A stretch of 32,000 nucleotides of DNA, from NCBI RefSeq assembly GCF_000017845.1, contig NC_010546.1, positions 3,060,001 through 3,092,000 of the forward strand. Direction: 5' to 3'. Both the position numbers and the translations under genes were made by a program. Shown here one piece after another: positions 13,529 through 32,000 of the stretch. How positions within the stretch are numbered: the stretch's first letter is position 1; every line of letters starts with the position of its first letter. The stretch comes from Crocosphaera subtropica ATCC 51142. GTDB lineage: Bacteria; Cyanobacteriota; Cyanobacteriia; Cyanobacteriales; Microcystaceae. The notes beneath the pieces are model-generated. The model was not told the DNA's origin, ran no database searches, and saw only the letters and a program-made list of their open reading frames with translations.

Positions 13529-13561
13529 AAAAAGCGATCACCCCAGAACAGAGCGATCGCT
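13529..13561 (-). terminator. Rho-independent terminator of giant gene 1
   Basis: On the minus strand, AGCGATC-15nt-GATCGCT is followed by TTTTT, 20 nt after the stop codon. The stem is built from HIP1-like sequence. Confidence 0.6.
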
Positions 13562-13580
13562 ACTCAACTAACAACTTGAA

Positions 13581-16500
13581 TTAACCAAAGACAAAGTGAT
13601 CAGCACTCAAACTACCAGCACTCACACCAAGCAGTTTGGCTAACTCATCGTCTCCAGTGGCAATTAAGGTATCGCCGTTTTCTTCACTGATCGTTAAACC
13701 GTCAAAGCCAATGCCCAAGCCAGCAATGCCCAAAACATCCGCTTCTAGGTCAAAGTCAGTGATGGTGTTGGCTGCTTCAGGAATCTCAGCCACAGCAAGC
13801 CAGAAACTGTCAGACCCTGCACCCCCTGTAACAACGTTATTACCCCCTAAGAGGAAGAAACTATCATCCCCTGCACCGGCAAAGGCACGGTCATTATGAC
13901 CGAGGATAAACGTATCATCGCCGGATTGTCCATAGAGACGGTTGCCTCCATTGCCCGCAACGGTATCAATGAAGTCATCTCCTGAGCCACCGAATAAGAT
14001 GTCATCAGTGCCATCAAACCCAGGAGTAACTCCTGCATCAAAGGTTTCCCCATCAAGACTACCAAACACAGGAAGCATCGATTCAGGGGAACTCTCTTCT
14101 AGCGTCGCCGTTAGCTCGTAGTCACCGTAAAATACCCCAATTTCTGGGAACGTCCAACCGCTACCGCTTCTGACCACATTGGGATCATAGTTACGGTTGC
14201 CTAGTAGACTGACACCGACATAGTAAGTCCCTGCTGTTTCAGCAGTAAACTCCAGATAGGGATCACGGGAGAATTCTTCCCCAGGGGCTGCACCATCACT
14301 ATTAGCAGCAAGTTCATTACCCTGTGCATCAAATAACCGTAATTCTGTATCCGTTTTCTGGGGCATTTCTACCAGTGCTGGATAGACGGTAAAACCATTG
14401 TTAGCAGGGGTGGGTTCCCCAGTATCAATATCGAGGGAAACCGTTTGTCCTGCTTCTAAAGTGATGGCGTACATATCCACATCTTCGGCAAACCCCAACC
14501 ATCTCTCAGGAGTTTGATTACTAGGCCCAGTAGCGGCAAGGGTTCCGTTAATGGAAACTGTGGGGGTTTGAGAACTTAAACCAAGGGCATTAGCTTCTGC
14601 TATGGTACTATTCCCCTCAATTTCTTCTGAAACACTGGCTTGATCTGGGGTATCTGCGATCGCAAAACTGGCTTGAGGGATTGCTTGGTTAATGAGATAA
14701 TTTTCACTGGGATCTAGACTAAAGAGTGCGGTTTCGCTGCCTTCTTCTACCCCATCATCCAGAACAGGGAGATTAATGGTGGCTTCCCGTTCAGTAATAT
14801 TGAAGTCAAAACCATCATCTCGCACCTCAGCAATGGTGCCACCCGCTGTATCAATAGCATCTAAATTAAATTCATCGAGGGCATCGGCACTGACACTGAC
14901 AGTTAAACCCTCTTCTGGGGGTGGGGAACTGAGGGTAAAGGTATGAACACTAACCGTTTCTTCTGACTCAATGAGGCTGGCTGGTGAACCTGTTAATCCC
15001 ACTTGAATCTTGGAGTCTGGGTTATCGGCAATGGTCAAGGTAATTTCACTGGCATCTGAATCAATGGTGTAACCTTCCTGGGGTTGTAGAGCAAAGGTTA
15101 TGTCAAACAGTCCCTCTTGTACCGTCACGGGATTATCGATCACCGTTAACTCATCAAACACTGACACGGTGATAGTGGCGGTTTGGTCAGTGATGGTGAA
15201 GAAAAAGCCCGATTCATCGCTATTGGGAACAGGGAAGTTGCCTCCTTCGATTTCTGCTTCAAGAACGGAAAACTGACCAAGAATACTACCGAGAAATGGC
15301 TCATCTTCGCTGTCCACAAATACGGTTATGCCCCCTTCTGGTGGTGCTTCGGATAGGGTAAAGCTAAAAGTGGTTTCCGTTTCTTCTGACTCAATGAGGA
15401 AAGTTTCACTCACCGTTAATCCCACTTCGGGAACAACATCTCCCCCACTTGGCGGTGGGACATCAGCCAGAGAGTCGTAGTAGGTTACCTCTGTGGTTCC
15501 GATTTCTGGGGCAACCTCGTAGCCTTCCCCTGGTTGTAGAAAGAAAGTGACATCTTCGGGCCCATCGGTTTCTAATCCTTCAAAGAGATCATAAAACCCA
15601 GTTGTATCGTGCTGGAAAGCGATAACAGGGTTACGATTCGCTCTTTCGAGATTAACAGTCATAGTGGGTTCATCGATGCGGAGTCGAATACCCGTAGGAA
15701 TACCTTCCTCGTTATAATATGCCCCTAGAGACTGTCCACCAACGGTGGTAGGAAGCTCATCTTGACCGAGATAGGAAACATAATCGAACAAATTAACATC
15801 GCTATTGAGAACAAATTCAATGCCCTCTTCCGGAATTTCTCCCTCGGCTTGAATGGTGAAGTTAACCCCAGAAATACCCCCAAGTTCCACAAATTCCACC
15901 ACTGCACTGGTAAAGTTCCCTTCGCTGTCTACGGTGGTGGGATTCGCACCCAAAGAAAGGGTAGGAGGATTGATAACATTGGGATTACTGACAGGGGGGG
16001 TGGGGGTTCCTGTTTTGCGTGGATTATCTTCTGTCAATAGGTTGATTTCCAGTTCATATAGACCGAAAGCAACTCGGTTGTCATCTCCTGAAGCCGGAAT
16101 CTCAATATCATAAGCAAGATCCTCACGGCCGTAAGATACGGGCGTGGCTGAGAGATAGGACGAAACCCCCACATAGTAGATGCCATCTTCTGAGGCGGTA
16201 AATTCTAAGTAAGTATCTGTTTCACTTTCAACGACGGTTCCATCATCCCGAAAAGCCCCTTCACCGACACCAAAAAGCTTATCGGGGGCAGCCGGGGTAT
16301 AAAGACCCGAAGAAATGAGTCGATTTCCTTCCGCGTCAAAAATAGCGACCCCTGAGAGATTACCAAATCGATTATTTACGTCACGATTCCCTTCTACTTC
16401 AAAGGTTTCGACGGCGATGGTATCTCCTGCGGTTAATTCTAATTTATAGAGGTCTACATCTTCGTTGTAGTCAACATAGGTGTAAGTGCCATCTTCGTTG

Positions 16501-18953
16501 AGATAGCGGTTGCCGATGTCAAAGTAGATAGAATCAACAGCAAAGAAGGAAGGGTTTTCGGGGGTAATTTGGGTGTCTGTGGCAAGGGAAACAATGTCAT
16601 TGGGTTCGGTCACAACCCCTCGCGGAATATCTGACCGTGTATCGACTAAGTTAAAGCTACCACCACTGTAATCTTCTACAATCTCATACCCATCTCCAGG
16701 GGCTAAACTAAAACTAGCGGTTTCTCCTGTTTCTGTTTCGCCATCATCGGCAATGGGCAAGTTTACCAATGTCGTATATTGAGTCATTCGCAGGTCAAAC
16801 CCACCATCACGGACTGCTTCGATGGTTCCTCCGTCCACGGAAATCCCTGCTAAGTCAAACTCGCTTAAGTTAGGCGCATCGACCGACACCACTAACCCGC
16901 CTTCGGGAATAGTGCCATTAGTTACATTAAAGGCATGAGCGGATACGGTTACCTCATCTTCGATCAAGTAACTAGGGCCAGTAAATAAACTTACTTGTAG
17001 AACATCCAACTCAGGCGGTTCTGGTGGTGGGGGTTCAGAAATCTCACTCAATTGACTCTCATCATCGACAAACAATACCGTAGAAGCAGCAGCATTGGGA
17101 TCAATGGTATAGTCCCCTAACGTTCCTACGTCTGCCAAATCTTCTGGTGCTACTTCAGTTTTCAACTCAAATACGGCTTCTACTAACCCATCAAAGGTTT
17201 CGGGTAGAAAGGTATCGGGTTCAGGATTATCAAATACGTCAATAGTAAAGGTTCCAAAGGTCGCCCCTTCATCAATGGTCAGGTAAAACCCTGAATTATC
17301 GAAGCTTGTGCCAAATAATGCAGGTTTAATGTTTTCCGTAATGGGATTAAAAGCAAACCCAGGTAAATCTAAACGATTGACAATTTGCTCAACATTACTA
17401 TCGACAAACACCTTTAAACCGCCTTCAGGGGCAGGTCCATCCAGGTCAAAGCGCACGGTCAAGGCGTTGCCTAAATCTTCAACCAAGGCGTTGAGATCGC
17501 CGTCAAAGTTAGTTGATGTTGATAAGCTTACTTGTGTTATAGTTTGATTTTTAATTGTGTCAACAATGGTCAAAGTCCCTGTTTGCGCTTCGGGATCAAC
17601 TTCGTAACCTTCTCCTGCTTCGAGGGAAAAGGTAGCGGTTTCTTCCCCTTCGATTTCTCCGTCATCAGCTACAGGTAAGGTTATCTGAGCGGTTTGTTCG
17701 GTTAAAGTCACCTCAAAGGTATCGTCAGCGATCCCTTGTCTATAGGGAGGCAAAATATCCCGAACCAGGTTATCGCGAGAAAAGCCGTTAATTAATTCAA
17801 TGTAGGTTAAGTCATCTTGAGGGGAATACCACATATTTGAGCGATATCCCAAAGTTTGCCCCCTGTGAGCATACCAAAAACGAATAGCAGATTCGAGGGT
17901 TCCTACTCCTAACCCATAGGAATCATAATTATTGTTGTCAATGGTAGGGATAACAGCAAGCATTTGCTCAAGGGTTTCGGGTTCTAGTAGTCGATCCTCT
18001 TTAAACAAACTACGGGCAAAGGTATCTAAATCTTGGGCATTAGAAATCATCGCCCCTGCTGTCCACGCCCAAGACAAACCTGCCGGGGTAATATTATCTA
18101 ACGTGCCATTGCTATCAAAATCCCAATAACCATTAACAAAGCCCCCAGGAACCGCTTCTTCTTGAGCAAAAAAGGTATTTTCCAGATTCAAAGGGGTGAG
18201 AATACGATTGCGGATTTCTTGGGCAATATTATTCCCTGTGGCTGCTTCAACAATTAATCCTGCTAAGATATAGTTCGTATTGGAATACTGCCAAGACTCC
18301 CCAGGCTCAAAGACAGGTTCTGCCCCATCAATTAAGTCCATTAATTGCTCTGGTTCCCACGGCCGCAAAAATACGGTCGGGTTGGTGGCTGCTTGGGTAA
18401 AGAGTATGTCTAAATAGTCGGCAATACCGCTTGTATGCTGCAATATTTGCCTGATGGTAATCTCTTGAGCATTGGGAATATCGGCGGTTAAGCTTTCGGG
18501 TAACCAAGTGGTCAAAGTATCTTCTAAGCTTAAAGAACCTTCTTCAACTAACTGTAAAACAGTGGTAGCCACAAAGGTTTTGGTAATACTGCCAATTTGA
18601 AAGCGATCGCTTGGTTGCAAAGGAATATTATTTTCTAAGTCAGCCACCCCACTGGTCCCATACCAACTGCCAAAAGGGGCAACAATGGCAACCACAGCCC
18701 CTGGTACTTCAGGGGTGCGAGTTCCATCTAATGCTGTCTGTAACTGTTGCTGAAGTTCGTCTTCTAGAGTAATGATCCCCCCTTCGATTTGTGCTTTACT
18801 CAGGTCAAACTCGGATAAGTTAGGAGCATTTAGCCTTACTACTATCCCATCAGGGGGAGGCGGTTCACTGAGACTGAGGGTCAGTAAAGAAAGGGTGGCT
18901 TCAGATTCAATTAAGCGTTCGGGTTCAAGGATTAAGCTGACTTTAGGTTCCAT
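13581..18953 (-). CDS. Giant (1790 aa) acidic RTX-type exoprotein with a beta-lactamase-like domain inserted in a Calx-beta-like domain, further Calx-beta-like domains, two PPC domains and a C-terminal Ca-binding repeat module
   Basis: The serine hydrolase domain has SxxK (S122-I-T-K), Y-S-N (Y223) and H-R-G (H363). Calx-beta-like signatures such as LPVADDGEIEGEETATFSL recur. PPC signatures are TEPND...DVDLYKLELTAGDT and DVDMYAITLEAGQT. The C-terminus has GGSGDDFID, GQSGDDTFI, GAGDDSFFL and GGAGSDSFW and ends in DHFVFG. I found no Cys codon. Confidence 0.9.
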   Translation of the reverse strand: MEPKVSLILEPERLIESEATLSLLTLSLSEPPPPDGIVVRLNAPNLSEFDLSKAQIEGGIITLEDELQQQLQTALDGTRTPEVPGAVVAIVAPFGSWYGTSGVADLENNIPLQPSDRFQIGSITKTFVATTVLQLVEEGSLSLEDTLTTWLPESLTADIPNAQEITIRQILQHTSGIADYLDILFTQAATNPTVFLRPWEPEQLMDLIDGAEPVFEPGESWQYSNTNYILAGLIVEAATGNNIAQEIRNRILTPLNLENTFFAQEEAVPGGFVNGYWDFDSNGTLDNITPAGLSWAWTAGAMISNAQDLDTFARSLFKEDRLLEPETLEQMLAVIPTIDNNNYDSYGLGVGTLESAIRFWYAHRGQTLGYRSNMWYSPQDDLTYIELINGFSRDNLVRDILPPYRQGIADDTFEVTLTEQTAQITLPVADDGEIEGEETATFSLEAGEGYEVDPEAQTGTLTIVDTIKNQTITQVSLSTSTNFDGDLNALVEDLGNALTVRFDLDGPAPEGGLKVFVDSNVEQIVNRLDLPGFAFNPITENIKPALFGTSFDNSGFYLTIDEGATFGTFTIDVFDNPEPDTFLPETFDGLVEAVFELKTEVAPEDLADVGTLGDYTIDPNAAASTVLFVDDESQLSEISEPPPPEPPELDVLQVSLFTGPSYLIEDEVTVSAHAFNVTNGTIPEGGLVVSVDAPNLSEFDLAGISVDGGTIEAVRDGGFDLRMTQYTTLVNLPIADDGETETGETASFSLAPGDGYEIVEDYSGGSFNLVDTRSDIPRGVVTEPNDIVSLATDTQITPENPSFFAVDSIYFDIGNRYLNEDGTYTYVDYNEDVDLYKLELTAGDTIAVETFEVEGNRDVNNRFGNLSGVAIFDAEGNRLISSGLYTPAAPDKLFGVGEGAFRDDGTVVESETDTYLEFTASEDGIYYVGVSSYLSATPVSYGREDLAYDIEIPASGDDNRVAFGLYELEINLLTEDNPRKTGTPTPPVSNPNVINPPTLSLGANPTTVDSEGNFTSAVVEFVELGGISGVNFTIQAEGEIPEEGIEFVLNSDVNLFDYVSYLGQDELPTTVGGQSLGAYYNEEGIPTGIRLRIDEPTMTVNLERANRNPVIAFQHDTTGFYDLFEGLETDGPEDVTFFLQPGEGYEVAPEIGTTEVTYYDSLADVPPPSGGDVVPEVGLTVSETFLIESEETETTFSFTLSEAPPEGGITVFVDSEDEPFLGSILGQFSVLEAEIEGGNFPVPNSDESGFFFTITDQTATITVSVFDELTVIDNPVTVQEGLFDITFALQPQEGYTIDSDASEITLTIADNPDSKIQVGLTGSPASLIESEETVSVHTFTLSSPPPEEGLTVSVSADALDEFNLDAIDTAGGTIAEVRDDGFDFNITEREATINLPVLDDGVEEGSETALFSLDPSENYLINQAIPQASFAIADTPDQASVSEEIEGNSTIAEANALGLSSQTPTVSINGTLAATGPSNQTPERWLGFAEDVDMYAITLEAGQTVSLDIDTGEPTPANNGFTVYPALVEMPQKTDTELRLFDAQGNELAANSDGAAPGEEFSRDPYLEFTAETAGTYYVGVSLLGNRNYDPNVVRSGSGWTFPEIGVFYGDYELTATLEESSPESMLPVFGSLDGETFDAGVTPGFDGTDDILFGGSGDDFIDTVAGNGGNRLYGQSGDDTFILGHNDRAFAGAGDDSFFLLGGNNVVTGGAGSDSFWLAVAEIPEAANTITDFDLEADVLGIAGLGIGFDGLTISEENGDTLIATGDDELAKLLGVSAGSLSADHFVFG

Positions 18954-19186
18954 TATATTTGGGTAATAGAATTACTATTAAGAATATTTTTAGATAAATA
19001 AATGAAAATGAATATGAGATATTAGTAGCTAACCACAGGCTTTCCTTGCCTATTGTCTTCACCTCACTCAGTCATATTTACTCTTCAAAGACTTCTAAAG
19101 CCAATAACTGGCAGCAACACATCTATTTTAAGTAGAGGATGTTGACTTAAATCAGTTGAGAGACTCTCTCAACAAAATTTTTACGA

Positions 19187-19195
19187 AGTATATCA
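19187..19195 (-). promoter_or_regulatory. Candidate extended -10 (TGATATACT) for giant gene 1
   Basis: The element is conserved as TGATATAGT at 26436-26444 upstream of giant gene 2. The spacing to the shared palindrome is the same within 1 nt. Confidence 0.4.
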
Positions 19196-19257
19196 CACTC
19201 AATGATGGTTTGGAAAGGTTTTTTACATTTAATATGTGATGAATAGAGATTTGCATC

Positions 19258-19274
19258 TGTGCAAATTTTGCACA
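19258..19274. promoter_or_regulatory. 8-1-8 perfect palindrome TGTGCAAA-T-TTTGCACA (candidate transcription-factor site)
   Basis: The palindrome was read directly from the sequence. Its centre is about -60 from the predicted isiB start and about -86 from the predicted gene 1 start. A paralogous copy lies at 26508-26524. Confidence 0.5.
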
Positions 19275-19290: not shown

Positions 19291-19319
19291 TTGACAGTTA
19301 TTGAGAATTATTCTAAACT
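19291..19319 (+). promoter_or_regulatory. Sigma70-type isiB promoter (TTGACA-17 nt-TAAACT) with an embedded Fur-box-like 7-1-7 element
   Basis: TTGACA lies at 19291-19296 and TAAACT at 19314-19319. TGAGAAT-T-ATTCTAA (19302-19316) matches the Fur 7-1-7 consensus TGATAAT-N-ATTATCA at 11 of 14 positions. Confidence 0.55.
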
Positions 19320-19365: not shown

Positions 19366-19878
19366 ATGAGTATGATCGGACTGTTTTACGGTACAGAAAC
19401 GGGAAAGACCGAAACCACCGCAGAAATGATTCAATCAGAACTAGGAGGGGATAAGGTTGTCGAACTAATGGATATTGCTGATTGTGAGGCGACGGACTTA
19501 GAGAAGTATGATTATTTAATCATCGGTTGTCCAACCTGGAACGTAGGAGAGCTACAAAGCGATTGGGAAAGCATTTATGATGATTTAGACACTATTGATT
19601 TTAAAGGCAAACAAGTCGCTTATTTTGGTACAGGGGATCAAATCGGCTATAGTGATAACTTTCAGGATGCGATGGGAATGCTCGAAGAGAAAATTAGTCA
19701 ATTGGGGGGAAAAACCGTCGGTCATTGGTCAGTAGATGGCTATGATTTTGATGACTCAAAAGCGGTGAAAAACGGTAAGTTTGTCGGTTTAGCTCTCGAT
19801 GAAGATAATCAGTCAGACTTGACCGAAGAACGTATTAAAACTTGGGTTGCTCAACTTAAACAAGAGTTTAACCTCTAA
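19366..19878 (+). CDS. isiB: Long-chain flavodoxin
   Basis: 170 aa. The FMN-binding start is IGLFYGTETGKTE. PTWNVGELQSDW, YFGTGDQIGYSDNFQDA and the long-chain insert are present. Confidence 0.95.
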   Translation: MSMIGLFYGTETGKTETTAEMIQSELGGDKVVELMDIADCEATDLEKYDYLIIGCPTWNVGELQSDWESIYDDLDTIDFKGKQVAYFGTGDQIGYSDNFQDAMGMLEEKISQLGGKTVGHWSVDGYDFDDSKAVKNGKFVGLALDEDNQSDLTEERIKTWVAQLKQEFNL

Positions 19879-19942: not shown

Positions 19943-19984
19943 ACTCCTCTGTTACAGTTTAAGATTAACAGAGGAGTTTCTTTT
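19943..19984 (+). terminator. Rho-independent terminator after isiB
   Basis: A perfect 12-bp stem ACTCCTCTGTTA / TAACAGAGGAGT with an 11-nt loop is followed by TTTCTTTT. The element abuts the stop of the convergent 96-aa ORF. Confidence 0.8.
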
Positions 19985-20273
19985 ACTTATATCTTTGATG
20001 AAATTGATTTAATAAGCTCTGAGTCGAAGGTATAAATTGATCTAGGTAATTTGATTTCACAACTTCAACCCTTTTTGAGTCAATTTTATGAGACATTTCG
20101 GGTTCCATTGGGGAAACGCAACATTTTCCTAAAAAATTGTGAAAATCATCAGCATCAGTGAATCTCGGCAAAATAGGTATTTTTCTATCAATATCCTCGA
20201 TTATTGCCTTGGTATGATAATAAGTTCTAAAGACTTCTCTAATTACGGGAAATGTTTCGAGTTTCATGATCAA
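19983..20273 (-). CDS. Hypothetical protein (96 aa), no recognisable family
   Basis: This is the only ORF of at least 60 aa in the 780-bp gap between isiB and giant gene 2. It has an ATG start and no signal peptide. Confidence 0.4.
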   Translation of the reverse strand: MIMKLETFPVIREVFRTYYHTKAIIEDIDRKIPILPRFTDADDFHNFLGKCCVSPMEPEMSHKIDSKRVEVVKSNYLDQFIPSTQSLLNQFHQRYK

Positions 20274-26116: not shown

Positions 26117-26435
26117 TTTTTTATTAGTGCAAAATTATCTTTAATTTGTTGATGGTTGAGTGTTGCTTTAGAATTGGATTGTTCAGGCAATACTCAAAAA
26201 ATCTGAGACAGATTGGACTCTGTTGTCAACTAAGAGTAAAAATAGTTATTAACTGTTGCCACTAATTAGACATTGCTAATTAACTGTTTTACTCTCAATG
26301 GGGAAAATCCGAGGAAAGCGAGATTGGCTTTATAGCAACCTCTGTTGGGATGACAGAGAGAAGTGGGATGATTTGGATTAGAGAATTGTCAGTCCACACA
26401 TCTGAGAATTACTCTCAATAATTTTTCCTTGATGA

Positions 26436-26444
26436 ACTATATCA
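26436..26444 (-). promoter_or_regulatory. Candidate extended -10 (TGATATAGT) for giant gene 2
   Basis: This is the paralogue of the element at 19187-19195. It sits within a roughly 150-bp stretch that aligns by eye between the two upstream regions. Confidence 0.35.
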
Positions 26445-26507
26445 CATACATTTCTTTTTGGCTAGGATTTTTATATTTTAGTCAGATGAGGTTATGGAGT
26501 CTGTACT

Positions 26508-26524
26508 TGTGCAAATTTTACACA
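26508..26524. promoter_or_regulatory. Paralogous copy of the palindrome (TGTGCAAA-T-TTTACACA)
   Basis: It matches 19258-19274 at 16 of 17 positions. It lies about 77 nt upstream of the conserved -10-like element, in gene 2 orientation. Confidence 0.45.
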
Positions 26525-26579: not shown

Positions 26580-29500
26580 TTAAATGTCTATTTCCTTTCG
26601 TTGTTTAGTTGAATCAACCAAAGAAGGTTGAACAGATAGTTGAATCACATTAATTCGCTCTGCTAAACTCGCTACTGTCGGTTTTTCAAACAGAGTACGC
26701 AAGGGTAAATCTAAAGAAAGCGTTTGACGTAAACGAGAATTAATACGAGTCGCTAAAAGAGAATTACCCCCTAATTCAAAAAAGTTATCATCAACACTCA
26801 AACTATCAATTTTAAGAATTTCTCGCCAAATGTCTGCAATTTTCCTTTCAATGGTATTACGAGGGGCAATGACTTCCTTTTTACTCAACTGACTTAAAGC
26901 AAGCAACGCCTTTCGATCTAGCTTGCCATTAGGCGTTAACGGGAAACTTTCTAAGGTCACAAAAGCACTGGGAACCCCATAACTGGGTAATTTTTGCTCT
27001 AAAAACTGACGCAGTTTCTGAGAAATGTCTTCTGTTTGAGACGTTTGAATATAAGCAATCAGTCGGCGATCGCCTGATTCAAATTCTTTAGCAAGAACCA
27101 CACAGGCAGTGATATCGGGATGCTGGCTTAAAATTGTTTCTATTTCCCCCAACTCAAGACGAACCCCACGAATTTTTACCTGATTATCAATTCTCCCTAA
27201 ATATTCTAAATTGCCATCTTCTCGGTATCTAACAAGATCCCCTGTTCGATATAACCGTTCTCCCGGTTGAAAAGGGTTGGGAACAAAAGAGTGGGCTGTT
27301 AAGTCGGGTCGATTGAGGTATCCTCTAGCTAGTCCTTCTCCCCCTAAATATAGTTCCCCTGCGACTCCGACAGGCAGTAACTTCTGTTGGGCATTGAGAA
27401 CATAAACTTGAATATTATCAATAGGTTTGCCAATGGGAACGGAGTAGTCATCGGGAAGACAAGTCCAGGCGGTAACATCGATCGCTGCTTCGGTAGGACC
27501 ATAAAGATTGTGTAATTCAGCCTTTACGGTTTGGAAAAAGCGATTTTTTAAGTCCACAGATAAGGCTTCCCCACTACAAATAACCCGTTTCACGGAGTGA
27601 CACTGAGATGCGTTTGCTTCTTCGAGGAAAACTTGAAGCATAGACGGGACAAAGTGGACAGTAGTAATGTTTTGCTCAATGATTAAATTGGCCAGATAAC
27701 CACTATCTTGATGTCCCCCAGGTTTTGCTACCACCAAACAAGCCCCATTTAACAGCGTCCAAAGAAACTCCCACACAGACACATCAAAGGTGTAAGGGGT
27801 TTTTTGTAAAACACGGTCATCAGGGGTTAAATTATAAGCCTTCTGCATCCAATTTAAGCGATTTAACACGCCTCGATAGGTATTAACGACTCCTTTGGGG
27901 TTTCCTGTTGAACCTGATGTGTAAAGGGCATAAATGCTATTATTTGGCGTGGTTTGAGGTGTAAGATTGGTCTTCGGATATTGGGAGAGTTTAAAGTAAT
28001 CTCTGTTTAAATGAATCAGGGTTTCAACGGGACAGTTAGAAAAATTTTGATCCGTGAGCAAGATAGAGCTTTGAGTATCATGAAGGATAAACTTAATGCG
28101 TTCTAAAGGGTAAGTTGGTTCAATGGGAACATACGCTCCTCCTGCCTTAAGAATGGCTAAAATAGCAATTACCATCTCTAAAGACCGTTCTAAGCAAATA
28201 CCCACTAAAGTTTCTGGTTTTACCCCTAAACTCTGTAAATGATGGGCCAATTGGTTGGCTTGGCTGTTCAGTTCTTGATAAGTTAATTCTTGATTGTCAA
28301 ACGTAACAGCAATATGATTAGGGGTTTTCTCAACTTGTCTTTCAAACAGTTGAGGAATGTAAAGCTCCCTGCTTCCTGCTCCCTGCTCCCTCTGCTCCCT
28401 GCTCCATACTCCCTGCTGTTGTTCCGGTAATAAGGGTATCTGCCACAATAGTTGTTGAGGATTTTCTATAATGTGGGTTAATAGAGTTTGAAAATGTGCT
28501 AATAAACGATTAATCACTGCATCAGAAAAGCGATCGCAATGATATTTCATCTTAATTGATAATTCGCTTCCCCCTCCTACTAAAATCGTTAAGGGTAGAC
28601 TGGTCCATTCCGTAGACTTAACGCTTTCGATGGTCAATGTTTCGCTGAGTTGAGCCACCGAGGGATCAACAGGATAATTTTCAAACACCAGAATTGTGTC
28701 AAATAAAGGCGTACCTGGGGGTAAATCACTGTTTTTCTGAATTTCTAGTAAGGATACATATTCATACTGCGAGGATTCTCCTTGTTCAACTTGTAGCTGT
28801 TTTAACCAAGGAATTAGCTTTGCTTGGGGAGGAACCTGAACCCGCACGGGAAGGGTATTAATAAATAACCCCACCATTGAATTGATTCCTTCTAGACTGG
28901 CTGAACGTCCGGAACCCGTTGCGCCAAAAATAATATCATCTTCACCGCTATAATAACTTAATAATAATGCCAACGCTCCTCTAATTACGGTATTTAAGGT
29001 TAATTCTTGTTGCTGTGCCAAAGATTTTAAAGCAGTGGTGGTTTGAGGAGATAAGGCGATTTCTTGCTCTGCTTGTGAGCTATTTTCTGCCAAAATACCG
29101 CTTTTTCCTGGAACGTTCCAACTGGTAGGTGTGGTAAACCCTTTTAATTTCTGTTTCCAAAACGTCTTAGCAACTGTTTCATCTTGTTGCTGTAACCAAC
29201 TAATATAGTCACCGTAGGGACGAGGATGATTAAGGGATAAATTACCATCCCCATGATACTGTTGAAAGACCTCTTTAACCACTAATCCCGATGACCACCC
29301 ATCTAGAATTAAGTGATGTTGTGTCCAAACTAAATAATAACGATTTTTTGCTAAATAAATCAACTTTAGACGTATTTGAGGCGGATTTTTTAAATCAAAA
29401 TCCCGTTTTCGCTCTTTTTCTAAAAATTCTTGTAACTTTTGTTCTTGTTCTTCGGGAGAAATATCTCGCCAGTCCTGTTCTTCCCAAGGTAACTTAACCT

Positions 29501-29750
29501 CACGATACACCGCTTGAAATGGGCGATCGCGTTTTTCCCAATGAAAAGAGACACGGAAGGGTTGATGTCTAGCAATAATAGTTTTCCAAGCTTGTTTAAA
29601 CCGAGGAATATTTAAAGCACCCACTAAGGTCAAACATAGTTGAGGTTGATAAACCCCAGAATGAGGAGTTAAAAGAGTATGGAATAAAATGCCCTGTTGT
29701 AGAGGGGAAAGGGGATAAATATCTTCAATATTTTTTTTCTTATCTATCAT
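26580..29750 (-). CDS. Single-module non-ribosomal peptide synthetase (C-A-T), with no TE/R release domain
   Basis: C domain: YPLSPLQQGILFH and HHLILDGWS. A domain: LYTSGSTGNPKG, FDVSVWE, NLYGPTE, GELYLGGEGLARGY, YRTGDL, VKIRGVRLELGEIE and NGKLDRKAL. T domain: FFELGGNSLLA. The protein ends about 45 aa after the T domain. Confidence 0.93.
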   Translation of the reverse strand: MIDKKKNIEDIYPLSPLQQGILFHTLLTPHSGVYQPQLCLTLVGALNIPRFKQAWKTIIARHQPFRVSFHWEKRDRPFQAVYREVKLPWEEQDWRDISPEEQEQKLQEFLEKERKRDFDLKNPPQIRLKLIYLAKNRYYLVWTQHHLILDGWSSGLVVKEVFQQYHGDGNLSLNHPRPYGDYISWLQQQDETVAKTFWKQKLKGFTTPTSWNVPGKSGILAENSSQAEQEIALSPQTTTALKSLAQQQELTLNTVIRGALALLLSYYSGEDDIIFGATGSGRSASLEGINSMVGLFINTLPVRVQVPPQAKLIPWLKQLQVEQGESSQYEYVSLLEIQKNSDLPPGTPLFDTILVFENYPVDPSVAQLSETLTIESVKSTEWTSLPLTILVGGGSELSIKMKYHCDRFSDAVINRLLAHFQTLLTHIIENPQQLLWQIPLLPEQQQGVWSREQREQGAGSRELYIPQLFERQVEKTPNHIAVTFDNQELTYQELNSQANQLAHHLQSLGVKPETLVGICLERSLEMVIAILAILKAGGAYVPIEPTYPLERIKFILHDTQSSILLTDQNFSNCPVETLIHLNRDYFKLSQYPKTNLTPQTTPNNSIYALYTSGSTGNPKGVVNTYRGVLNRLNWMQKAYNLTPDDRVLQKTPYTFDVSVWEFLWTLLNGACLVVAKPGGHQDSGYLANLIIEQNITTVHFVPSMLQVFLEEANASQCHSVKRVICSGEALSVDLKNRFFQTVKAELHNLYGPTEAAIDVTAWTCLPDDYSVPIGKPIDNIQVYVLNAQQKLLPVGVAGELYLGGEGLARGYLNRPDLTAHSFVPNPFQPGERLYRTGDLVRYREDGNLEYLGRIDNQVKIRGVRLELGEIETILSQHPDITACVVLAKEFESGDRRLIAYIQTSQTEDISQKLRQFLEQKLPSYGVPSAFVTLESFPLTPNGKLDRKALLALSQLSKKEVIAPRNTIERKIADIWREILKIDSLSVDDNFFELGGNSLLATRINSRLRQTLSLDLPLRTLFEKPTVASLAERINVIQLSVQPSLVDSTKQRKEIDI
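28364..28414. repeat. Heptanucleotide tandem repeat (coding strand AGGGAGC, about 7 units plus 2 nt, 51 nt in total) in the NRPS C-A linker
   Basis: The plus strand reads GCTCCCT GCTTCCT GCTCCCT GCTCCCT CT GCTCCCT GCTCCAT ACTCCCT. It is translated in frame as GVWSREQREQGAGSREL. Confidence 0.8.
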
Positions 29751-29781: not shown

Positions 29782-29816
29782 GGCTCTCCTAGATAATTAA
29801 GCTATCTAGAAGAGCC
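29782..29816 (-). other. 14-position stem hairpin (13 bp plus 1 mismatch) between the giant gene 3 stop and the NRPS start
   Basis: GGCTCTCCTAGATA-7nt-TATCTAGAAGAGCC. On the minus strand only TTT follows before an A-run, so it is an attenuator or processing element rather than a clear terminator. Confidence 0.45.
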
Positions 29817-29838
29817 AATTAACATCAGAATTTAGACG

Positions 29839-32000
29839 TTAACCAAAGACAAAATGATCTTCATCCAGTTGAGTCGCCTCAATGTCTAATAAAAGACCGA
29901 AATTTTGTCCGTTGCTAGAGATTAGGGTATTACTGCCTTGTTGAGTCAACGTTAAATCCTCGTAACTCACACCTAAACCACCAATTCCTAATGTATCAAC
30001 ATCAAGTTCAAAATCGGTGATGGTATCAATATCATTAGGTATTTCACCTAAAGCAAACCAAAACTGATCGGCTCCTGTTCCCCCTGTAATAACATTGCGA
30101 TCGCCAAGAAGATAAAAAATATCATCTCCGCCACCTCCAAAAGCTCGGTTGTTGTCACCCAAGAGGAAAGTATCATTACCAGATCCACCATATAAACGGT
30201 TACCACCAGTTCCTGCTGTTGTGTCAATGAGATCATTTCCTGAGCCTGCGAAAACGATATCATCAGTCCCATTAAAGTCGGGAGTAACGCCAGCGTCAAA
30301 GGTATCATTCCCAACAGTCCCAAAGGACAAGATTTCTTCGGTAACAGGTGCTTCAGTCACTTCGAGGGTAACAGTTGTCGTGTCAGAATTATCAGTTCCG
30401 TCATTTGCTTGATAGGTAAAGCTATCTGTCCCTGAAAATCCTTCATTGGGGGTATAGGTAAAGGAACCATCTTCATTGAAATCAAGGGTTCCATTACTTG
30501 GCCCTTCGTCCACAATAGCACTTAAAGGATCACCATCAGCATCTGTATCATTATCTAACACATTACCGGTAATAGCAGCATTTTCTTCCAGGCTATAGCT
30601 ATCATCAGTGGCCACAGGAGGGGTATTCACAGGAGGTGGCGTAATACCGTCAATGGTAATAGTTGCTGTGGCTGTATCCGTTCCTCCTTGTCCATCACTG
30701 ACAGTGTAGTTAAAGCTATCAGTGTCGGTTTCTCCGTCTTCTAAGTTGTCAAAGACTCCATTGGGGTCATAACTATAACTGCCATCACTGTTGAGGGTTA
30801 ATAATGCACCTGAAGCTAAGGTAACTTGACTACCAACATCAGAAGCTTGTCCATTAACTTCAGTAACACTGAGACTGTCTCCATCCGCATCACTATCGTT
30901 GGTTAAAACATTACCAGCAAGAGAAGCATTTTCAGGGGTACTGTTGCTATCATCAGTGGCCACAGGAGGGGTATTCACAGGAGGTGGCGTAATACCGTCA
31001 ATGGTAATAGTTGCTGTGGCTGTATCCGTTCCTCCTTGTCCATCACTGACAGTGTAGTTAAAGCTATCAGTGTCGGTTTCTCCGTCTTCTAAGTTGTCAA
31101 AGACTCCATTGGGGTCATAACTATAACTGCCATCACTGTTGAGGGTTAATAATGCACCTGAAGCTAAGGTAACTTGACTACCAACATCAGAAGCTTGTCC
31201 ATTAACTTCAGTAACACTGAGACTGTCTCCATCCGCATCACTATCGTTGGTTAAAACATTACCAGCAAGAGAAGCATTTTCAGGGGTACTGTTGCTATCA
31301 TCAGTGGCCACAGGAGGGGTATTCACAGGAGGTGGCGTAATACCGTCAATGGTAATAGTTGCTGTGGCTGTATCCGTTCCTCCTTGTCCATCACTGACAG
31401 TGTAGTTAAAGCTATCAGTGTCGGTTTCTCCGTCTTCTAAGTTGTCAAAGACTCCATTGGGGTCATAACTATAACTGCCATCACTGTTGAGGGTTAATAA
31501 TGCACCTGAAGCTAAGGTAACTTGACTACCAACATCAGAAGCTTGTCCATTAACTTCAGTAACACTGAGACTGTCTCCATCCGCATCACTATCGTTGGTT
31601 AAAACATTACCAGCAAGAGAAGCATTTTCAGGGGTACTGTTGCTATCATCAGTGGCCACAGGAGGGGTATTCACAGGAGGTGGCGTAATACCGTCAATGG
31701 TAATAGTTGCTGTGGCTGTATCCGTTCCTCCTTGTCCATCACTGACAGTGTAGTTAAAGCTATCAGTGTCGGTTTCTCCGTCTTCTAAGTTGTCAAAGAC
31801 TCCATTGGGGTCATAACTATAACTGCCATCACTGTTGAGGGTTAATAATGCACCTGAAGCTAAGGTAACTTGACTACCAACATCAGAAGCTTGTCCATTA
31901 ACTTCAGTAACACTGAGACTGTCTCCATCCGCATCACTATCGTTGGTTAAAACATTACCAGCAAGAGAAGCATTTTCAGGGGTACTGTTACTATCATCAG
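29839..32000 (-). CDS. Cadherin-like / VCBS-type tandem-repeat exoprotein with a C-terminal RTX module; 5' end lies outside the window
   Basis: The repeats read PPVATDDSNSTPENASLAGNVLTNDSDADGDSLSV...FNYTVSDGQGGTDTATATITI. The C-terminus has GSGNDLID, GGSGNDTFL, GGGDDIFYL and GGTGADQFW and ends in DHFVFG. nt 31675-32000 repeat the in-frame unit with one synonymous change, so the GTG at 31674 is not the real start. Confidence 0.88.
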   Translation of the reverse strand, partial: DDSNSTPENASLAGNVLTNDSDADGDSLSVTEVNGQASDVGSQVTLASGALLTLNSDGSYSYDPNGVFDNLEDGETDTDSFNYTVSDGQGGTDTATATITIDGITPPPVNTPPVATDDSNSTPENASLAGNVLTNDSDADGDSLSVTEVNGQASDVGSQVTLASGALLTLNSDGSYSYDPNGVFDNLEDGETDTDSFNYTVSDGQGGTDTATATITIDGITPPPVNTPPVATDDSNSTPENASLAGNVLTNDSDADGDSLSVTEVNGQASDVGSQVTLASGALLTLNSDGSYSYDPNGVFDNLEDGETDTDSFNYTVSDGQGGTDTATATITIDGITPPPVNTPPVATDDSNSTPENASLAGNVLTNDSDADGDSLSVTEVNGQASDVGSQVTLASGALLTLNSDGSYSYDPNGVFDNLEDGETDTDSFNYTVSDGQGGTDTATATITIDGITPPPVNTPPVATDDSYSLEENAAITGNVLDNDTDADGDPLSAIVDEGPSNGTLDFNEDGSFTYTPNEGFSGTDSFTYQANDGTDNSDTTTVTLEVTEAPVTEEILSFGTVGNDTFDAGVTPDFNGTDDIVFAGSGNDLIDTTAGTGGNRLYGGSGNDTFLLGDNNRAFGGGGDDIFYLLGDRNVITGGTGADQFWFALGEIPNDIDTITDFELDVDTLGIGGLGVSYEDLTLTQQGSNTLISSNGQNFGLLLDIEATQLDEDHFVFG
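30598..32000. repeat. Tandem array of 348-bp (116-aa) repeats, at least 4 copies and identical as far as I can read, running off the window
   Basis: The marker GCCACAGGAGGGGTATTCAC occurs at 30611, 30959, 31307 and 31655. The copies align without mismatch by eye, except for one G/A difference near 31990. A diverged fifth unit lies at about 30330-30597. Confidence 0.9.

What the first reader, a model, noticed from the sequence alone, without database searches (positions are those of the whole stretch)
13529..32000. Island-level view: a family of RTX-tailed, Cys-free giant exoproteins interleaved with flavodoxin and an orphan NRPS
In 18.5 kb, three co-oriented genes totalling more than 4,300 codons share one C-terminal module but carry different cargo. 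Gene 1 has a hydrolase plus PPC domains, gene 2 has Calx-beta arrays, and gene 3 has cadherin-like arrays. Two of them share a promoter module that overlaps the isiB control region, and a Ser-type NRPS module sits between them. There are no transposases, integrases or secretion genes, so the island looks like a resident, internally recombining locus rather than a recent mobile insertion. Evidence for internal recombination includes the gene-converted tails, the nested duplications and the perfect repeats. My working hypothesis is an iron- or calcium-responsive surface or exoprotein system exported by a distant T1SS. Each individual part is known, but I do not recognise this combination as a described system.
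Basis: inference. Interest (0 to 1): 0.68.

Follow-up and report, generated by a model that had tools for sequence, protein, structure and literature searches.

The report
Iron-linked cluster of giant secreted proteins
Three huge, acidic, calcium-binding proteins of a marine nitrogen-fixing cyanobacterium share a portable export tail and sit beside a flavodoxin gene and a peptide-synthetase gene; they belong to a widespread, already annotated kind of secreted protein, the gene neighbourhood is not a conserved system, and shared promoter elements hint at iron control.

Summary
Nearly every sequence-level statement holds. Three minus-strand genes (1790 aa, 1818 aa, at least 719 aa, the last cut by the window edge) are Cys-free, very acidic and end in one RTX-type tail. 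A long-chain flavodoxin and an intact Ser-type C-A-T NRPS lie between them, and the window has no mobility or secretion genes. The window is almost certainly from Crocosphaera subtropica (Cyanothece) ATCC 51142.

The tail is a common C-terminal module: 163 cluster representatives at E<=1e-30, nearly always at the protein's end. It is homogenised within genomes, including a paralogue outside this locus.

The "island" is not a conserved unit. Flavodoxin homologues in relatives neighbour feoABC, or isiA and an α/β-hydrolase gene, not giants. Only the G3-NRPS pair is conserved, within Crocosphaera, where it lies among TonB-receptor, ABC-exporter and further NRPS genes.

G1 and G2 share a 120-nt upstream module with an 8-1-8 palindrome, an extended -10 promoter and a Fur-like 7-1-7 box. 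That box is otherwise found in the flavodoxin promoter.

Best reading: type I secretion-type surface or matrix proteins, probably iron-regulated, as RTX proteins are in Trichodesmium. They are new members of a known kind.

The parts
13581..18953 (-). G1: 1790-aa Cys-free giant. It contains Calx-beta-like units, an inserted S12 (R61-type DD-peptidase fold) hydrolase, two PPC domains and an RTX tail.
17739..18770 (-). G1 residues 62-405: the hydrolase domain (SITK, YSN and HRG motifs present), inserted between positions 61 and 62 of a Calx-beta-like unit.
   Evidence: G1 4-61 and 406-466 align contiguously to the uninterrupted unit G1 651-772, with scores of 115 and 144 against shuffle means of 25 and 30; best solved relatives are DD-carboxypeptidases and alkaline D-peptidase, E 1e-44 to 1e-52. 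Motifs read from the sequence.
13581..14076 (-). G1 copy of the shared tail: RTX nonapeptides plus a C-terminal segment ending DHFVFG.
   Evidence: PF00353 at 26.8 bits against a cut-off of 23
13533..13561 (-). Terminator-like hairpin (13 pairs plus a T-run) just after the G1 stop.
19157..19274 (.). Shared upstream module, copy A, in the G1/flavodoxin divergent intergenic region. Contents: a degenerate 7-1-7 box at 19157-19171, a minus-strand extended -10 promoter (TTTCCA-18-TATACT) at 19187-19216, and the 8-1-8 palindrome TGTGCAAATTTTGCACA at 19258-19274.
19291..19319 (+). Flavodoxin core promoter, TTGACA-17-TAAACT, with the Fur-like box TGAGAATTATTCTAA (19302-19316) in the spacer. The segment from the -35 hexamer through the box is identical in a Crocosphaera MAG apart from one spacer base; the -10 hexamer there is TAAATT.
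19366..19878 (+). Long-chain flavodoxin (FldA/IsiB type), 170 aa.
19983..20273 (-). 96-codon ORF with no family match, AT-rich. It is unclear whether it is a real gene.
20492..20521 (-). Terminator-like hairpin downstream of G2 (the scan also lists it on the + strand).
20660..26116 (-). G2: 1818-aa Cys-free giant with roughly 11-12 Calx-beta-like beta-sandwich units and an RTX tail (20660-21155). Its N-terminus is homologous to G1 from residue 472, so it is a 'headless' G1-type protein.
26403..26524 (.). Shared upstream module, copy B. Contents: the Fur-like box TGAGAATTACTCTCA at 26403-26417, a minus-strand extended -10 promoter (TAGCCA-17-TATAGT) at 26436-26464, and the palindrome TGTGCAAATTTTACACA at 26508-26524.
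26580..29750 (-). Single-module NRPS, C-A-T, 1056 aa. The A-domain code is DVWHISLIDK (Ser-like). There is no TE domain. The HHxxxDG, A3, A7, A8, A10 and GGxS motifs are intact.
   Evidence: orthologues 75-76% identical in two Crocosphaera genomes
29782..29816 (-). 15-bp hairpin after the G3 stop, leaving a roughly 30-nt A-rich leader before the NRPS ATG.
   Evidence: -31.9 kcal/mol for the 101-nt stretch, z = -7.7
29839..32000 (-). G3, the 3' part of a longer gene: cadherin-like/VCBS repeats (348-nt units, 99-100% identical) and a diverged copy of the RTX tail.
   Evidence: The Alani8 orthologue is 71% identical and has an N-terminal DUF4347.

Best explanation
SOURCE AND LAYOUT. This is a resident chromosomal region of Crocosphaera subtropica (Cyanothece) ATCC 51142. 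It carries three independently transcribed genes for giant, acidic, Cys-free, calcium-binding exoproteins.

PROTEIN ARCHITECTURE. Each protein is a string of beta-sandwich modules: Calx-beta-like units in G1 and G2, PPC domains in G1, and cadherin/VCBS repeats in G3. Each ends in the same portable module of RTX nonapeptides plus a roughly 60-residue uncleaved C-terminal signal.

INFERRED MECHANISM. The proteins are threaded unfolded, C-terminus first, through a type I secretion system (ABC transporter, membrane-fusion protein and TolC-like channel) encoded elsewhere in the genome. Outside the cell, calcium folds the RTX beta-roll and stiffens the repeat arrays. The result would be a cell-surface or matrix layer. 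G1 additionally displays an S12 D-peptidase/esterase-type hydrolase that is inserted into its first Calx-like unit.

TAILS. The tail is kept matched to the host's transporter by gene conversion or tail swapping among all tail-bearing paralogues of a genome.

REGULATION. G1 and G2 share a 120-nt regulatory module with three parts: an upstream 8-1-8 palindrome (a site for an unknown regulator, also present upstream of the G3 orthologue in Crocosphaera sp. Alani8), an extended -10 promoter, and a Fur-like 7-1-7 box at about +10 to +25. The same box type sits in the spacer of the neighbouring flavodoxin promoter. The giants are therefore probably de-repressed under iron limitation together with flavodoxin, as reported for RTX ('HTCaB') proteins of Trichodesmium.

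NRPS. The Ser-activating C-A-T NRPS is not a modifier of the giants. It is the local piece of a siderophore-like NRPS/PKS, TonB-receptor and ABC-exporter region that occupies the same position in sister Crocosphaera genomes.

SHOWN VERSUS INFERRED. Shown: domain content, tail sharing and tail distribution, the shared module, synteny, and intact catalytic motifs. Inferred: secretion route, calcium-dependent folding, iron regulation, and surface function. My separate estimates are about 0.85 that these are T1SS-type exported proteins and about 0.45 that they are iron-regulated.
For: SECRETION-TYPE FEATURES.
- PF00353 is above its cut-off in G1 and G2, and each tail has 3-4 GGxGxDxUx repeats.
- The tail query found 3776 cluster representatives at E<=0.001, 878 at E<=1e-10 and 163 at E<=1e-30.
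- In 131 of the 140 best matches that reach the end of the tail, the match ends within 20 residues of the protein's C-terminus, typically as F-[VAT]-F-[AGV].
- 124 of those 148 proteins have no Cys.
- The G1 and G2 N-termini lack a basic n-region and a hydrophobic core.

TAIL HOMOGENISATION.
- G1, G2 and cce_4675 tails are 95-97% identical, while the gene bodies are at most 72.5% (nucleotide) or 63% (protein) identical.
- The G1 relative in a Synechococcales MAG is 60% identical over 97% of G1. It carries a different tail, shared with its two giant neighbours.

REGULATION.
- The shared module is about 11 sd above shuffles.
- The palindrome is found in the window only at the two module copies, against 0.13 expected. 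It also lies about 140 nt upstream of the Alani8 G3-orthologue ATG.
- Homologous extended -10 promoters were picked up by the scan.
- The 7-1-7 box with at most 1 mismatch occurs in the window only at the flavodoxin promoter and upstream of G2.
- The same box lies upstream of flavodoxin genes in two further Crocosphaera lineages and upstream of an IsiA-like gene. The background for at most 1 mismatch is 0 in 1.38 Mb and 1 in 0.2 Mb of AT-rich DNA.
- The flavodoxin homologue in a relative is divergent from feoABC.

IRON-ACQUISITION CONTEXT OF THE G3-NRPS PAIR.
- Relatives have a TonB-dependent receptor (AMIN+Plug+barrel), two ABC_membrane_2 exporters, further NRPS modules, a terminal reductase, a methyltransferase and an aminotransferase nearby.

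PRECEDENT.
- Fe-regulated HTCaB proteins are reported in Trichodesmium (PMC5776111; PMC12090762).
Against: - No T1SS ABC, MFP or TolC gene is in the window or in the fetched relatives' flanks. Secretion is untested.
- NCBIfam's T1SS C-terminal target model did not match the proteins at E<=0.01.
- The Fur assignment of the 7-1-7 box rests on three things: resemblance to the classical Fur-family TGATAAT-N-ATTATCA motif (my knowledge), its position, and its conservation. The published cyanobacterial logos could not be read.
- The G1 copy of the box has 4 mismatches.
- The pattern was derived from the flavodoxin promoter itself, so only the G2 hit and the hits in relatives are independent.
- The palindrome is absent from the flavodoxin promoter of relatives, and its binding protein is unknown.
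- The flavodoxin-giant adjacency is not conserved.
- No expression or exoproteome data for these genes were found in the searchable literature.
Confidence: 0.5

Rival explanations
1. Fortuitous neighbourhood. The giants are general-purpose surface or matrix proteins (adhesion, S-layer-like coat, aggregation) with no functional or regulatory tie to flavodoxin or the NRPS. The shared upstream module is a leftover of the duplication and recombination that built G1 and G2, and the 7-1-7 match upstream of G2 is chance.
For: The flavodoxin-giant adjacency is absent in all relatives examined. The closest G1 relative lies among other giants, toxin-antitoxin genes and a Crp-type regulator, with no iron genes nearby. 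The tail is shared with a paralogue that is not among the window's genes. G2 is visibly a mosaic of G1-derived segments. Matches to the box with 2 or more mismatches are common in AT-rich DNA.
Against: The module keeps its promoter hexamers, palindrome and box while the flanking sequence has diverged to background. The palindrome recurs upstream of a different giant (the G3 orthologue) in another species. A match with at most 1 mismatch is rare (0-1 in 1.6 Mb of control DNA), yet it falls about 10-25 nt downstream of the predicted G2 transcription start.
Confidence: 0.3
2. Integrated iron-acquisition system. The giants, the NRPS-derived siderophore and flavodoxin form one functional unit. For example, a calcium-stiffened extracellular matrix could capture mineral or colloidal iron, or retain the siderophore, near the cell, with the NRPS product and the giants acting together.
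For: The G3-NRPS adjacency is conserved in three Crocosphaera genomes, with a TonB receptor, ABC exporters and further NRPS/PKS genes around it. A tail remnant lies next to the 54%-identical NRPS orthologue in Plectonema LEGE 06105. Fur-like boxes are present. RTX proteins have been proposed for particulate-iron use in Trichodesmium (PMC5776111, PMC12090762).
Against: Synteny within one genus is weak evidence for function. In C. watsonii WH8501 the G3 orthologue is split by an IS element and the G2-like gene is a fragment, while the NRPS stays intact. The Rivularia orthologue has no giant nearby. No metal-binding or siderophore-binding domain was identified in the giants. A strong hairpin separates G3 from the NRPS.
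Confidence: 0.12
3. Recently acquired foreign island. The higher G+C content of the giants (46-48% against 30-41% nearby) would reflect horizontal transfer.
For: G+C rises over G1 and G2. The closest full-length relative of G1 is in a distant Synechococcales MAG rather than in Crocosphaera.
Against: The rise is mostly at codon positions 1 and 2, reflecting the G/A/D/E/T/V-rich composition. GC3 is 0.39-0.43 in G1 and G2, against 0.35-0.37 in thiC, dusA and the flavodoxin gene, and only 0.29 in G3. There are no integrase, transposase or flanking tRNA or repeat signatures. G3-NRPS is syntenic across the genus.
Confidence: 0.08

Closest known systems
Giant RTX adhesins secreted by type I systems (LapA of Pseudomonas fluorescens, MpIBP of Marinomonas primoryensis, SiiE, the BapA/Bap/LapF family)
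   Same: Very large, acidic and Cys-poor. Long arrays of calcium-binding Ig-like repeats. A C-terminal block of RTX nonapeptides followed by an uncleaved secretion signal. G3 reaches the NCBIfam BapA/Bap/LapF large-adhesin model (182.8 bits against a cut-off of 180).
   Different: No adjacent ABC/MFP/TolC genes and no LapG/LapD-type retention machinery. No N-terminal [TP]AA[GV] site in G1, G2 or the in-window part of G3; the only match is at G2 residue 595. The extender modules are Calx-beta-like or PPC rather than BIg. G1 carries an enzyme inserted into a repeat. The retention mechanism is unknown.
Iron-regulated 'haemolysin-type calcium-binding' (HTCaB) proteins of Trichodesmium erythraeum (Tery_0419, Tery_0424, Tery_2055, Tery_2710; PMC5776111, PMC12090762)
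   Same: RTX-repeat exoprotein candidates of a marine diazotrophic cyanobacterium, with a link to iron limitation. In Trichodesmium the link comes from transcriptomics; here it comes from promoter boxes and gene context.
   Different: Homology to those particular genes was not tested. Polyviou et al. describe CHRD domains, which were not found here. Expression of the present genes is unmeasured.
Cyanobacterial RTX surface proteins: SwmA (Synechococcus WH8102), oscillin (Phormidium), HlyA/Sll1951 S-layer protein (Synechocystis 6803). Recalled from knowledge, not tested here.
   Same: Secreted, RTX-containing, cell-surface structural proteins of cyanobacteria whose transporter is encoded away from the substrate gene.
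   Different: Those are single abundant surface proteins with roles in motility or the S-layer. Here three modular paralogues carry different cargo and a genome-homogenised tail. No sequence comparison was run.
Streptomyces R61 DD-peptidase / Bacillus alkaline D-peptidase (MEROPS family S12)
   Same: The G1 head matches their structures at E 1e-44 to 1e-52 and keeps the SxxK, YxN and HxG motifs (read from the sequence).
   Different: It is embedded in a Calx-beta-like unit of a 1790-aa RTX protein. Substrate unknown.
EntF-type serine-activating NRPS modules of catecholate siderophore pathways
   Same: C-A-T order, a Ser-like specificity code (DVWHISLIDK) and an NCBIfam EntF alignment of 510 bits.
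   Different: Far below the EntF cut-off (2400 bits). No thioesterase domain. No DHB-activating or other partner genes in the window. The product is unknown.

Membership tests
RTX / type I secretion substrates | Tandem GGxGxDxUx nonapeptides near the C-terminus | tested here: met
   PF00353 scores 26.8 bits (G1) and 26.0 bits (G2) against a cut-off of 23. Each tail has 3-4 nonapeptides. The weak PDB matches are all to CyaA/HlyA RTX blocks.
RTX / type I secretion substrates | Uncleaved secretion signal in the last ~60 residues, at the extreme C-terminus | tested here: inconclusive
   The tail module sits within 20 residues of the C-terminus in 131 of 140 best homologues and ends F-x-F-[AGV]. 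That fits a signal, but none of the 5 proteins matched NCBIfam's T1SS C-terminal target model at E<=0.01, and function is untested.
RTX / type I secretion substrates | No N-terminal Sec/Tat signal; acidic; few or no Cys | tested here: met
   0 Cys, 18-19% D+E, and N-termini without a basic n-region or hydrophobic core. No dedicated signal-peptide predictor was available.
RTX / type I secretion substrates | Cognate ABC transporter, membrane-fusion protein and TolC-like channel (often adjacent) | tested here: not met
   None is in the 32-kb window. The ABC pair in the Alani8 flank is of the ABC_membrane_2/SbmA type. The rest of the genome could not be searched.
RTX / type I secretion substrates | Demonstrated export | not testable with these tools
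   Needs exoproteomics or mutants. No literature found.
LapA-type retained adhesins | N-terminal retention module with a LapG (di-alanine) cleavage site and lapD/lapG genes | tested here: not met
   No N-terminal [TP]AA[GV] motif in G1, G2 or the in-window part of G3; the only match is at G2 residue 595. No LapG/LapD-like gene is in the window. The G3 N-terminus lies outside the window; its orthologues start with DUF4347.
Calx-beta domain arrays | ~100-140-aa beta-sandwich units with the acidic DDxxxExxE calcium-site motif | tested here: met
   PF03160 scores 38.7 bits against a cut-off of 27 in G2. G2 has 8 canonical motif units about 140 aa apart and G1 has 3 or more. The AlphaFold model of one unit pair is all-beta (pLDDT 71). 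Foldseek gave only generic Ig-like matches.
MEROPS S12 serine peptidases (R61 DD-peptidase type) | Beta-lactamase fold with SxxK, YxN and H/KxG motifs | tested here: met
   PF00144 3.9e-60. PDB relatives at 1e-44 to 1e-52. SITK, YSN and HRG are present in the G1 sequence (read from the sequence). Activity and substrate untested.
NRPS elongation-type module | C (HHxxxDG), A (A3-A10 motifs, Lys517) and T (GGxS) domains intact | tested here: met
Siderophore biosynthetic gene cluster | NRPS together with a TonB-dependent receptor, transporters and partner synthetases in one locus | tested here: inconclusive
   Not met inside the window. Met in the syntenic regions of Crocosphaera sp. Alani8 and C. 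watsonii WH8501. The DNA beyond position 32000 was not available.
IsiB / long-chain flavodoxin | FldA-type long-chain flavodoxin with iron-stress regulation | tested here: met
   NF006736 scores 261.5 bits against a cut-off of 202. Homologues sit beside feoABC, or downstream of an IsiA-like (PF00421) gene and upstream of an α/β-hydrolase gene. Regulation is inferred from the conserved promoter box only.
Fur regulon | Fur-family 7-1-7 operator between about -100 and +50 of the transcription start (position range from PMC8634477) | tested here: inconclusive
   Boxes lie at 19302-19316 (flavodoxin promoter spacer) and 26403-26417 (about +12 to +26 of the predicted G2 start), each with 1 mismatch to TGAGAATNATTCTCA. 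The G1 copy has 4 mismatches. The identity of the binding protein is not shown.

The most novel reading that the evidence does not exclude
In unicellular marine diazotrophs of the genus Crocosphaera, the giant T1SS-type exoproteins would form an iron-limitation regulon. Control would come from a Fur-like operator plus a so far undescribed 8-1-8 palindrome, TGTGCAAA-N-TTTGCACA. The regulon would be physically and functionally coupled to a siderophore-type NRPS, TonB-receptor and ABC-exporter region. Its product would be a calcium-stiffened extracellular matrix that captures particulate or siderophore-bound iron, the unicellular counterpart of what has been proposed for Trichodesmium colonies.
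Probability: 0.18. Interest if true: 0.6.

Novelty: new member of a known kind. Interest (0 to 1): 0.36.

Why it matters
Crocosphaera and Cyanothece are major oceanic nitrogen fixers that are often iron-limited. If the giants are switched on with flavodoxin under iron stress, a well-studied and genetically tractable model strain (ATCC 51142) could be used to test what iron-regulated RTX proteins do. That question has been open since such proteins were seen in Trichodesmium transcriptomes.

Three by-products are useful for annotating and engineering cyanobacterial secreted proteins:
- the export tail is homogenised within each genome;
- enzyme heads are swapped on one chassis;
- a hydrolase is nested inside a Calx-beta-like unit.

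Otherwise the locus is an ordinary example of a large, already annotated cyanobacterial protein class.

Tried and rejected
- EXACT-SEQUENCE LOOK-UPS. Look-ups of the window's NRPS, flavodoxin, G2, G1 and the paralogue cce_4675 all returned nothing. The DNA beyond position 32000 (G3 5' end, possible further NRPS genes) and the rest of the genome (T1SS genes, other copies of the motifs) could therefore not be examined.
- METAGENOME SCAN FOR THE PALINDROME. The first attempt errored. The repeat gave more than 120 hits from unrelated habitats. None of the 80 fetched loci encodes a relative of any window protein, so these are chance matches and uninformative.
- E. COLI FUR CONSENSUS. Scanning with the 19-mer gave 20 scattered hits of at least 13/19 and did not discriminate.
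- A SECOND PALINDROME. TGCAAATAATTTGCA before the flavodoxin ATG is not conserved in the Crocosphaera MAG. I dropped it.
- STRUCTURE WORK. Foldseek on the G2 unit-pair model gave only generic antibody and integrin Ig-like matches with low TM scores. It neither adds to nor contradicts the Calx-beta assignment. The AlphaFold model of G1 1-470 had pLDDT 54.8, with confident flanking beta-strands but a poorly modelled hydrolase. The insertion claim therefore rests on the sequence alignment.
- LITERATURE. Searches for RTX, haemolysin or secretion in Cyanothece 51142 or Crocosphaera found nothing specific. The palindrome string matched only unrelated papers. The published cyanobacterial Fur-box logos exist only as images.
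- FOREIGN-ISLAND IDEA. Rejected on codon-position G+C content.
- NRPS MODIFYING THE GIANTS. No evidence was found for or against this, and I set it aside.

Full report
WHAT IS THERE.

The right-hand 18.5 kb of the window holds, all on the minus strand:
- G1 (13581-18953, 1790 aa);
- G2 (20660-26116, 1818 aa);
- a single-module NRPS (26580-29750, 1056 aa);
- G3 (29839 to the window edge, at least 719 codons, frame still open).

A flavodoxin gene lies on the plus strand (19366-19878), and a 96-codon ORF of unknown status lies at 19983-20273.

Pfam and NCBIfam give these assignments:
- G1: a Beta-lactamase-fold hydrolase, two PPC domains and RTX repeats.
- G2: Calx-beta and RTX repeats.
- G3: Big_9/Cadherin_4/5/VCBS repeats. 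It just reaches the BapA/Bap/LapF large-adhesin model.
- NRPS: Condensation, AMP-binding and PP-binding domains.
- Flavodoxin: FldA equivalog, above its cut-off.

The left 13 kb holds ordinary housekeeping genes: dusA, dprA, thiC with its TPP riboswitch, deoC, an FKBP gene and a phasin-like gene. Nothing in the window resembles a transposase, an integrase or a secretion component.

The three giants have no cysteine at all, 18-19% Asp+Glu and 0.4-3% Lys+Arg. The G1 and G2 N-termini have no Sec-type signal features.

SOURCE.

The window is therefore almost certainly from the Cyanothece 51142 chromosome.

- Tails. The G1 and G2 tails are 93.6% identical over 502 nt, with sharp borders: the similarity starts at 'LPVFGSLDGE' and ends 6 nt after the stop. 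There are 24 synonymous and 6 non-synonymous codon differences. Elsewhere the two genes are at most 72.5% identical. The G3 tail is a diverged copy (56-58% protein identity).
- Mosaic structure. The G2 N-terminus is homologous to G1 from residue 472, so G2 is a 'headless' G1-type protein.
- Repeats. G2 holds a 91% identical 811-nt internal duplication with a 305-nt exact run. The G3 348-nt units are 99-100% identical.
- NRPS. The A domain reads DVWHISLIDK. That is one conservative change from the canonical serine code DVWHLSLIDK (Stachelhaus rules, from my knowledge). All catalytic motifs are intact.

WHAT THE TAIL IS.

A full HMMER scan of 1.84 billion cluster representatives with the 175-residue tail found 3776 proteins at E<=0.001, 878 at E<=1e-10 and 163 at E<=1e-30. 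I looked at the 148 best matches in detail:
- In 140 the match reaches the end of the tail.
- In 114 of those it ends within 5 residues of the protein's C-terminus, and in 131 within 20. The usual ending is F-[VAT]-F-[AGV].
- Protein lengths range from 153 to 3899 aa.
- 124 of the 148 have no cysteine.

The tail is therefore a common, portable C-terminal module. Its anatomy (RTX nonapeptides followed by a short terminal segment) is that of type I secretion substrates.

The tail is also homogenised within genomes. G1, G2 and cce_4675 (which is not among the window's genes) share 95-97% identical tails. The closest full-length relative of G1 is 60% identical over 97% of its length and comes from a Synechococcales MAG. 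It carries a quite different tail (32% identity to G1's), which it shares with the two other giants next to it. The G3 tail clusters instead with its Alani8 orthologue (70%).

My inference is that the tail co-evolves with the resident transporter and is spread among paralogues by gene conversion or tail swapping. This process is genome-wide, not an island-internal one.

A MODULAR FAMILY ALREADY IN THE DATABASES.

The G1 search returned 84 proteins, essentially all cyanobacterial. Their annotations include 'serine hydrolase', 'pre-peptidase C-terminal domain-containing protein', 'DVUA0089 family protein', 'calcium-binding protein' and 'amidase family protein'. They share the PPC/Calx/RTX chassis but carry different heads: one or two beta-lactamase-fold domains, an amidase, DUF4347, or cadherin repeats.

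The G1 head is closest to S12 DD-peptidases and alkaline D-peptidase (E 1e-44 to 1e-52). It keeps the SITK, YSN and HRG motifs (read from the sequence).

The head is inserted inside a repeat. G1 residues 4-61 align to positions 3-61, and residues 406-466 to positions 62-122, of the uninterrupted unit G1 651-772. The scores are 115 and 144 against shuffle means of 25 and 30. The AlphaFold model gives confident beta-strands for exactly those two flanks but models the hydrolase poorly.

A model of one G2 unit pair is two beta-sandwiches (pLDDT 71). Foldseek found only generic Ig-like folds.

IS THE NEIGHBOURHOOD A SYSTEM?

Scanning one genome per species with the NRPS found 75-76% identical orthologues in Crocosphaera sp. 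Alani8 and C. watsonii WH8501. More distant ones (54-57%) sit inside multi-module NRPS clusters of Rivularia and Plectonema.

In both Crocosphaera genomes a G3 orthologue lies immediately upstream of the NRPS. In WH8501 only fragments of it remain, with IS-type transposase genes (DDE_3 and helix-turn-helix ORFs) between them. A G2-like tail-bearing gene lies downstream.

The surrounding genes are a TonB-dependent receptor (AMIN+Plug+barrel), two ABC_membrane_2 exporters, further NRPS modules, a terminal reductase, a methyltransferase and an aminotransferase. In Plectonema a tail-only remnant sits beside the orthologue.

The 'orphan' NRPS is therefore the local piece of a siderophore-like region. 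Whether partners lie beyond position 32000 is unknown. A 15-bp hairpin follows the G3 stop and leaves only about 30 nt before the NRPS start.

By contrast, the flavodoxin's neighbours are not conserved:
- An 85% identical homologue in a Crocosphaera MAG is divergent from feoABC.
- A 79% homologue lies between an IsiA-like (PF00421) gene and an α/β-hydrolase gene, the order of an isiA-isiB-isiC operon.
- A 76% homologue follows ftsZ.

No giant is adjacent in any of them.

REGULATION.

The segments 19157-19274 and 26403-26524 align in the same orientation with a score of 52, against 22.3 +/- 2.7 for shuffles and at most 28 for other intergenic regions. The module contains three elements.

(i) An 8-1-8 palindrome, TGTGCAAA-N-TTTGCACA.
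- It is found in the window only at the two module copies, against 0.13 expected.
- Among 81 fetched loci it occurs exactly only twice. One site is about 140 nt upstream of the Alani8 G3-orthologue start, again followed by an extended -10 element (read from the sequence). The other is unexplained, inside an NRPS coding region of WH8501.

(ii) Homologous minus-strand promoters with TG-extended -10 boxes: TTTCCA-18-TATACT at 19216-19187 and TAGCCA-17-TATAGT at 26464-26436.

(iii) An inverted repeat 10-25 nt downstream of the predicted starts.
- In the G2 copy it reads TGAGAATTACTCTCA.
- The flavodoxin core promoter is TTGACA-17-TAAACT at 19291-19319 and carries TGAGAATTATTCTAA in its spacer. In the Crocosphaera MAG the segment from the -35 hexamer through the box is identical apart from one spacer base, and the -10 hexamer is TAAATT.
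- With at most 1 mismatch to TGAGAATNATTCTCA, the only sites in the window are these two.
- Similar boxes lie upstream of flavodoxin genes in two other lineages and upstream of an IsiA-like gene. Control DNA gave 0 such sites in 1.38 Mb and 1 in 0.2 Mb of AT-rich sequence.

The motif differs at one position per half-site from the classical Fur-family 7-1-7 box TGATAAT-N-ATTATCA (my knowledge). I therefore read it as a Fur-type operator, but this is inference.

Three cautions apply:
- The G1 copy is degenerate (4 mismatches).
- The palindrome is not part of the conserved flavodoxin promoter.
- The module abuts the flavodoxin core promoter rather than overlapping it.

COMPARISON WITH WHAT IS KNOWN.

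By anatomy the giants work like RTX adhesins or surface proteins exported by type I systems. Membership of the RTX substrate class is supported for the repeat, charge, Cys and C-terminal-position criteria. It is unsupported for a cognate transporter, which is absent locally, and untested for export.

They are not LapA-type. No retention site or lapDG genes are present.

Iron-regulated RTX ('HTCaB') proteins have been reported in Trichodesmium and proposed to serve particulate-iron use (PMC5776111; PMC12090762). I found no paper on these genes in Cyanothece or Crocosphaera.

VERDICT.

The locus holds new members of a widespread, annotated but functionally uncharacterised class of cyanobacterial T1SS-type giants. 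They lie next to the remains or edge of a siderophore-like region and a flavodoxin gene.

The points worth keeping are:
- the shared regulatory module with a candidate Fur box and a new palindrome;
- genome-wide tail homogenisation;
- the nested hydrolase.

None of these is a strong surprise to a specialist, and all functional steps remain inferred.

Noticed in passing
window 17739-18770 (G1 residues 62-405): The S12 hydrolase domain is nested inside a Calx-beta-like unit. The two halves of the unit flank it and align contiguously to an intact unit further along the protein. Homologues carry other enzyme heads on the same chassis.
   Followed up: yes
L077 18354-18370 (C. watsonii WH8501): An exact copy of the 8-1-8 palindrome TGTGCAAAATTTGCACA lies inside the coding sequence of a neighbouring NRPS A domain (it encodes ...DCAKFAQE...). 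It could be chance or an internal regulatory site. Unexplained.
   Followed up: partly
L081 (Synechococcales MAG GCA_035285585.1), 2683-23369: Three RTX giants lie together: a PPC giant, the closest full-length G1 relative, and a DUF4347-cadherin G3-like protein. Their C-terminal ~70 residues are nearly identical to one another. A Crp/Fnr-family regulator gene is directly next to the G3-like gene.
   Followed up: partly
window 29782-29816 (-): A 15-bp perfect hairpin follows the G3 stop and is itself followed by UUUAAAAAAAA (z = -7.7 for the 101-nt stretch). It leaves only about 30 nt before the NRPS ATG, so the NRPS is either read through from G3 or has a promoter inside G3.
   Followed up: partly
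window 8943-9038 (+) and 8743-8815 (-): A TPP riboswitch lies upstream of thiC, and a tRNA gene is on the opposite strand just before it.
   Followed up: no
window 46-894 (+): The C-terminal part of a 'choice-of-anchor I' domain protein ends in a PEP-CTERM-like sorting motif (VPEP...hydrophobic...RKKS). This is another predicted surface protein, but of a different export class.
   Followed up: no
window 28364-28417: An imperfect heptanucleotide tandem repeat, (GCTCCCT)n on the + strand, sits in the C-A linker of the NRPS. It encodes a low-complexity Q/E/R/G stretch.
   Followed up: no
L077 6773-9747: In C. watsonii WH8501 the G3 orthologue survives as an N-terminal DUF4347 ORF and a C-terminal tail fragment, with DDE_3 transposase and helix-turn-helix ORFs between them. 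The downstream TonB receptor and G2-like genes are truncated. The NRPS remains full length.
   Followed up: partly
L013 9099-9602 (Plectonema cf. radiosum LEGE 06105): A tail-only remnant lies between NRPS genes, divergent from the 54%-identical orthologue of the window's NRPS. It has a stop codon directly before the tail and no upstream body.
   Followed up: partly
window 19983-20273 (-) and the 781-nt spacer 19879-20659: A 96-codon AT-rich ORF without any family match lies between the flavodoxin terminator and the G2 terminator. Coding status unknown.
   Followed up: no
L082 9007-10513; L085 4957-7488: The flavodoxin homologues of relatives are divergent from feoABC (L082) or lie between an IsiA-like (PF00421) gene and an α/β-hydrolase gene (L085). 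The L082 promoter from the -35 hexamer through the 7-1-7 box is identical to the window's apart from one spacer base. In L085 two boxes with 2 mismatches lie upstream of the IsiA-like gene.
   Followed up: yes
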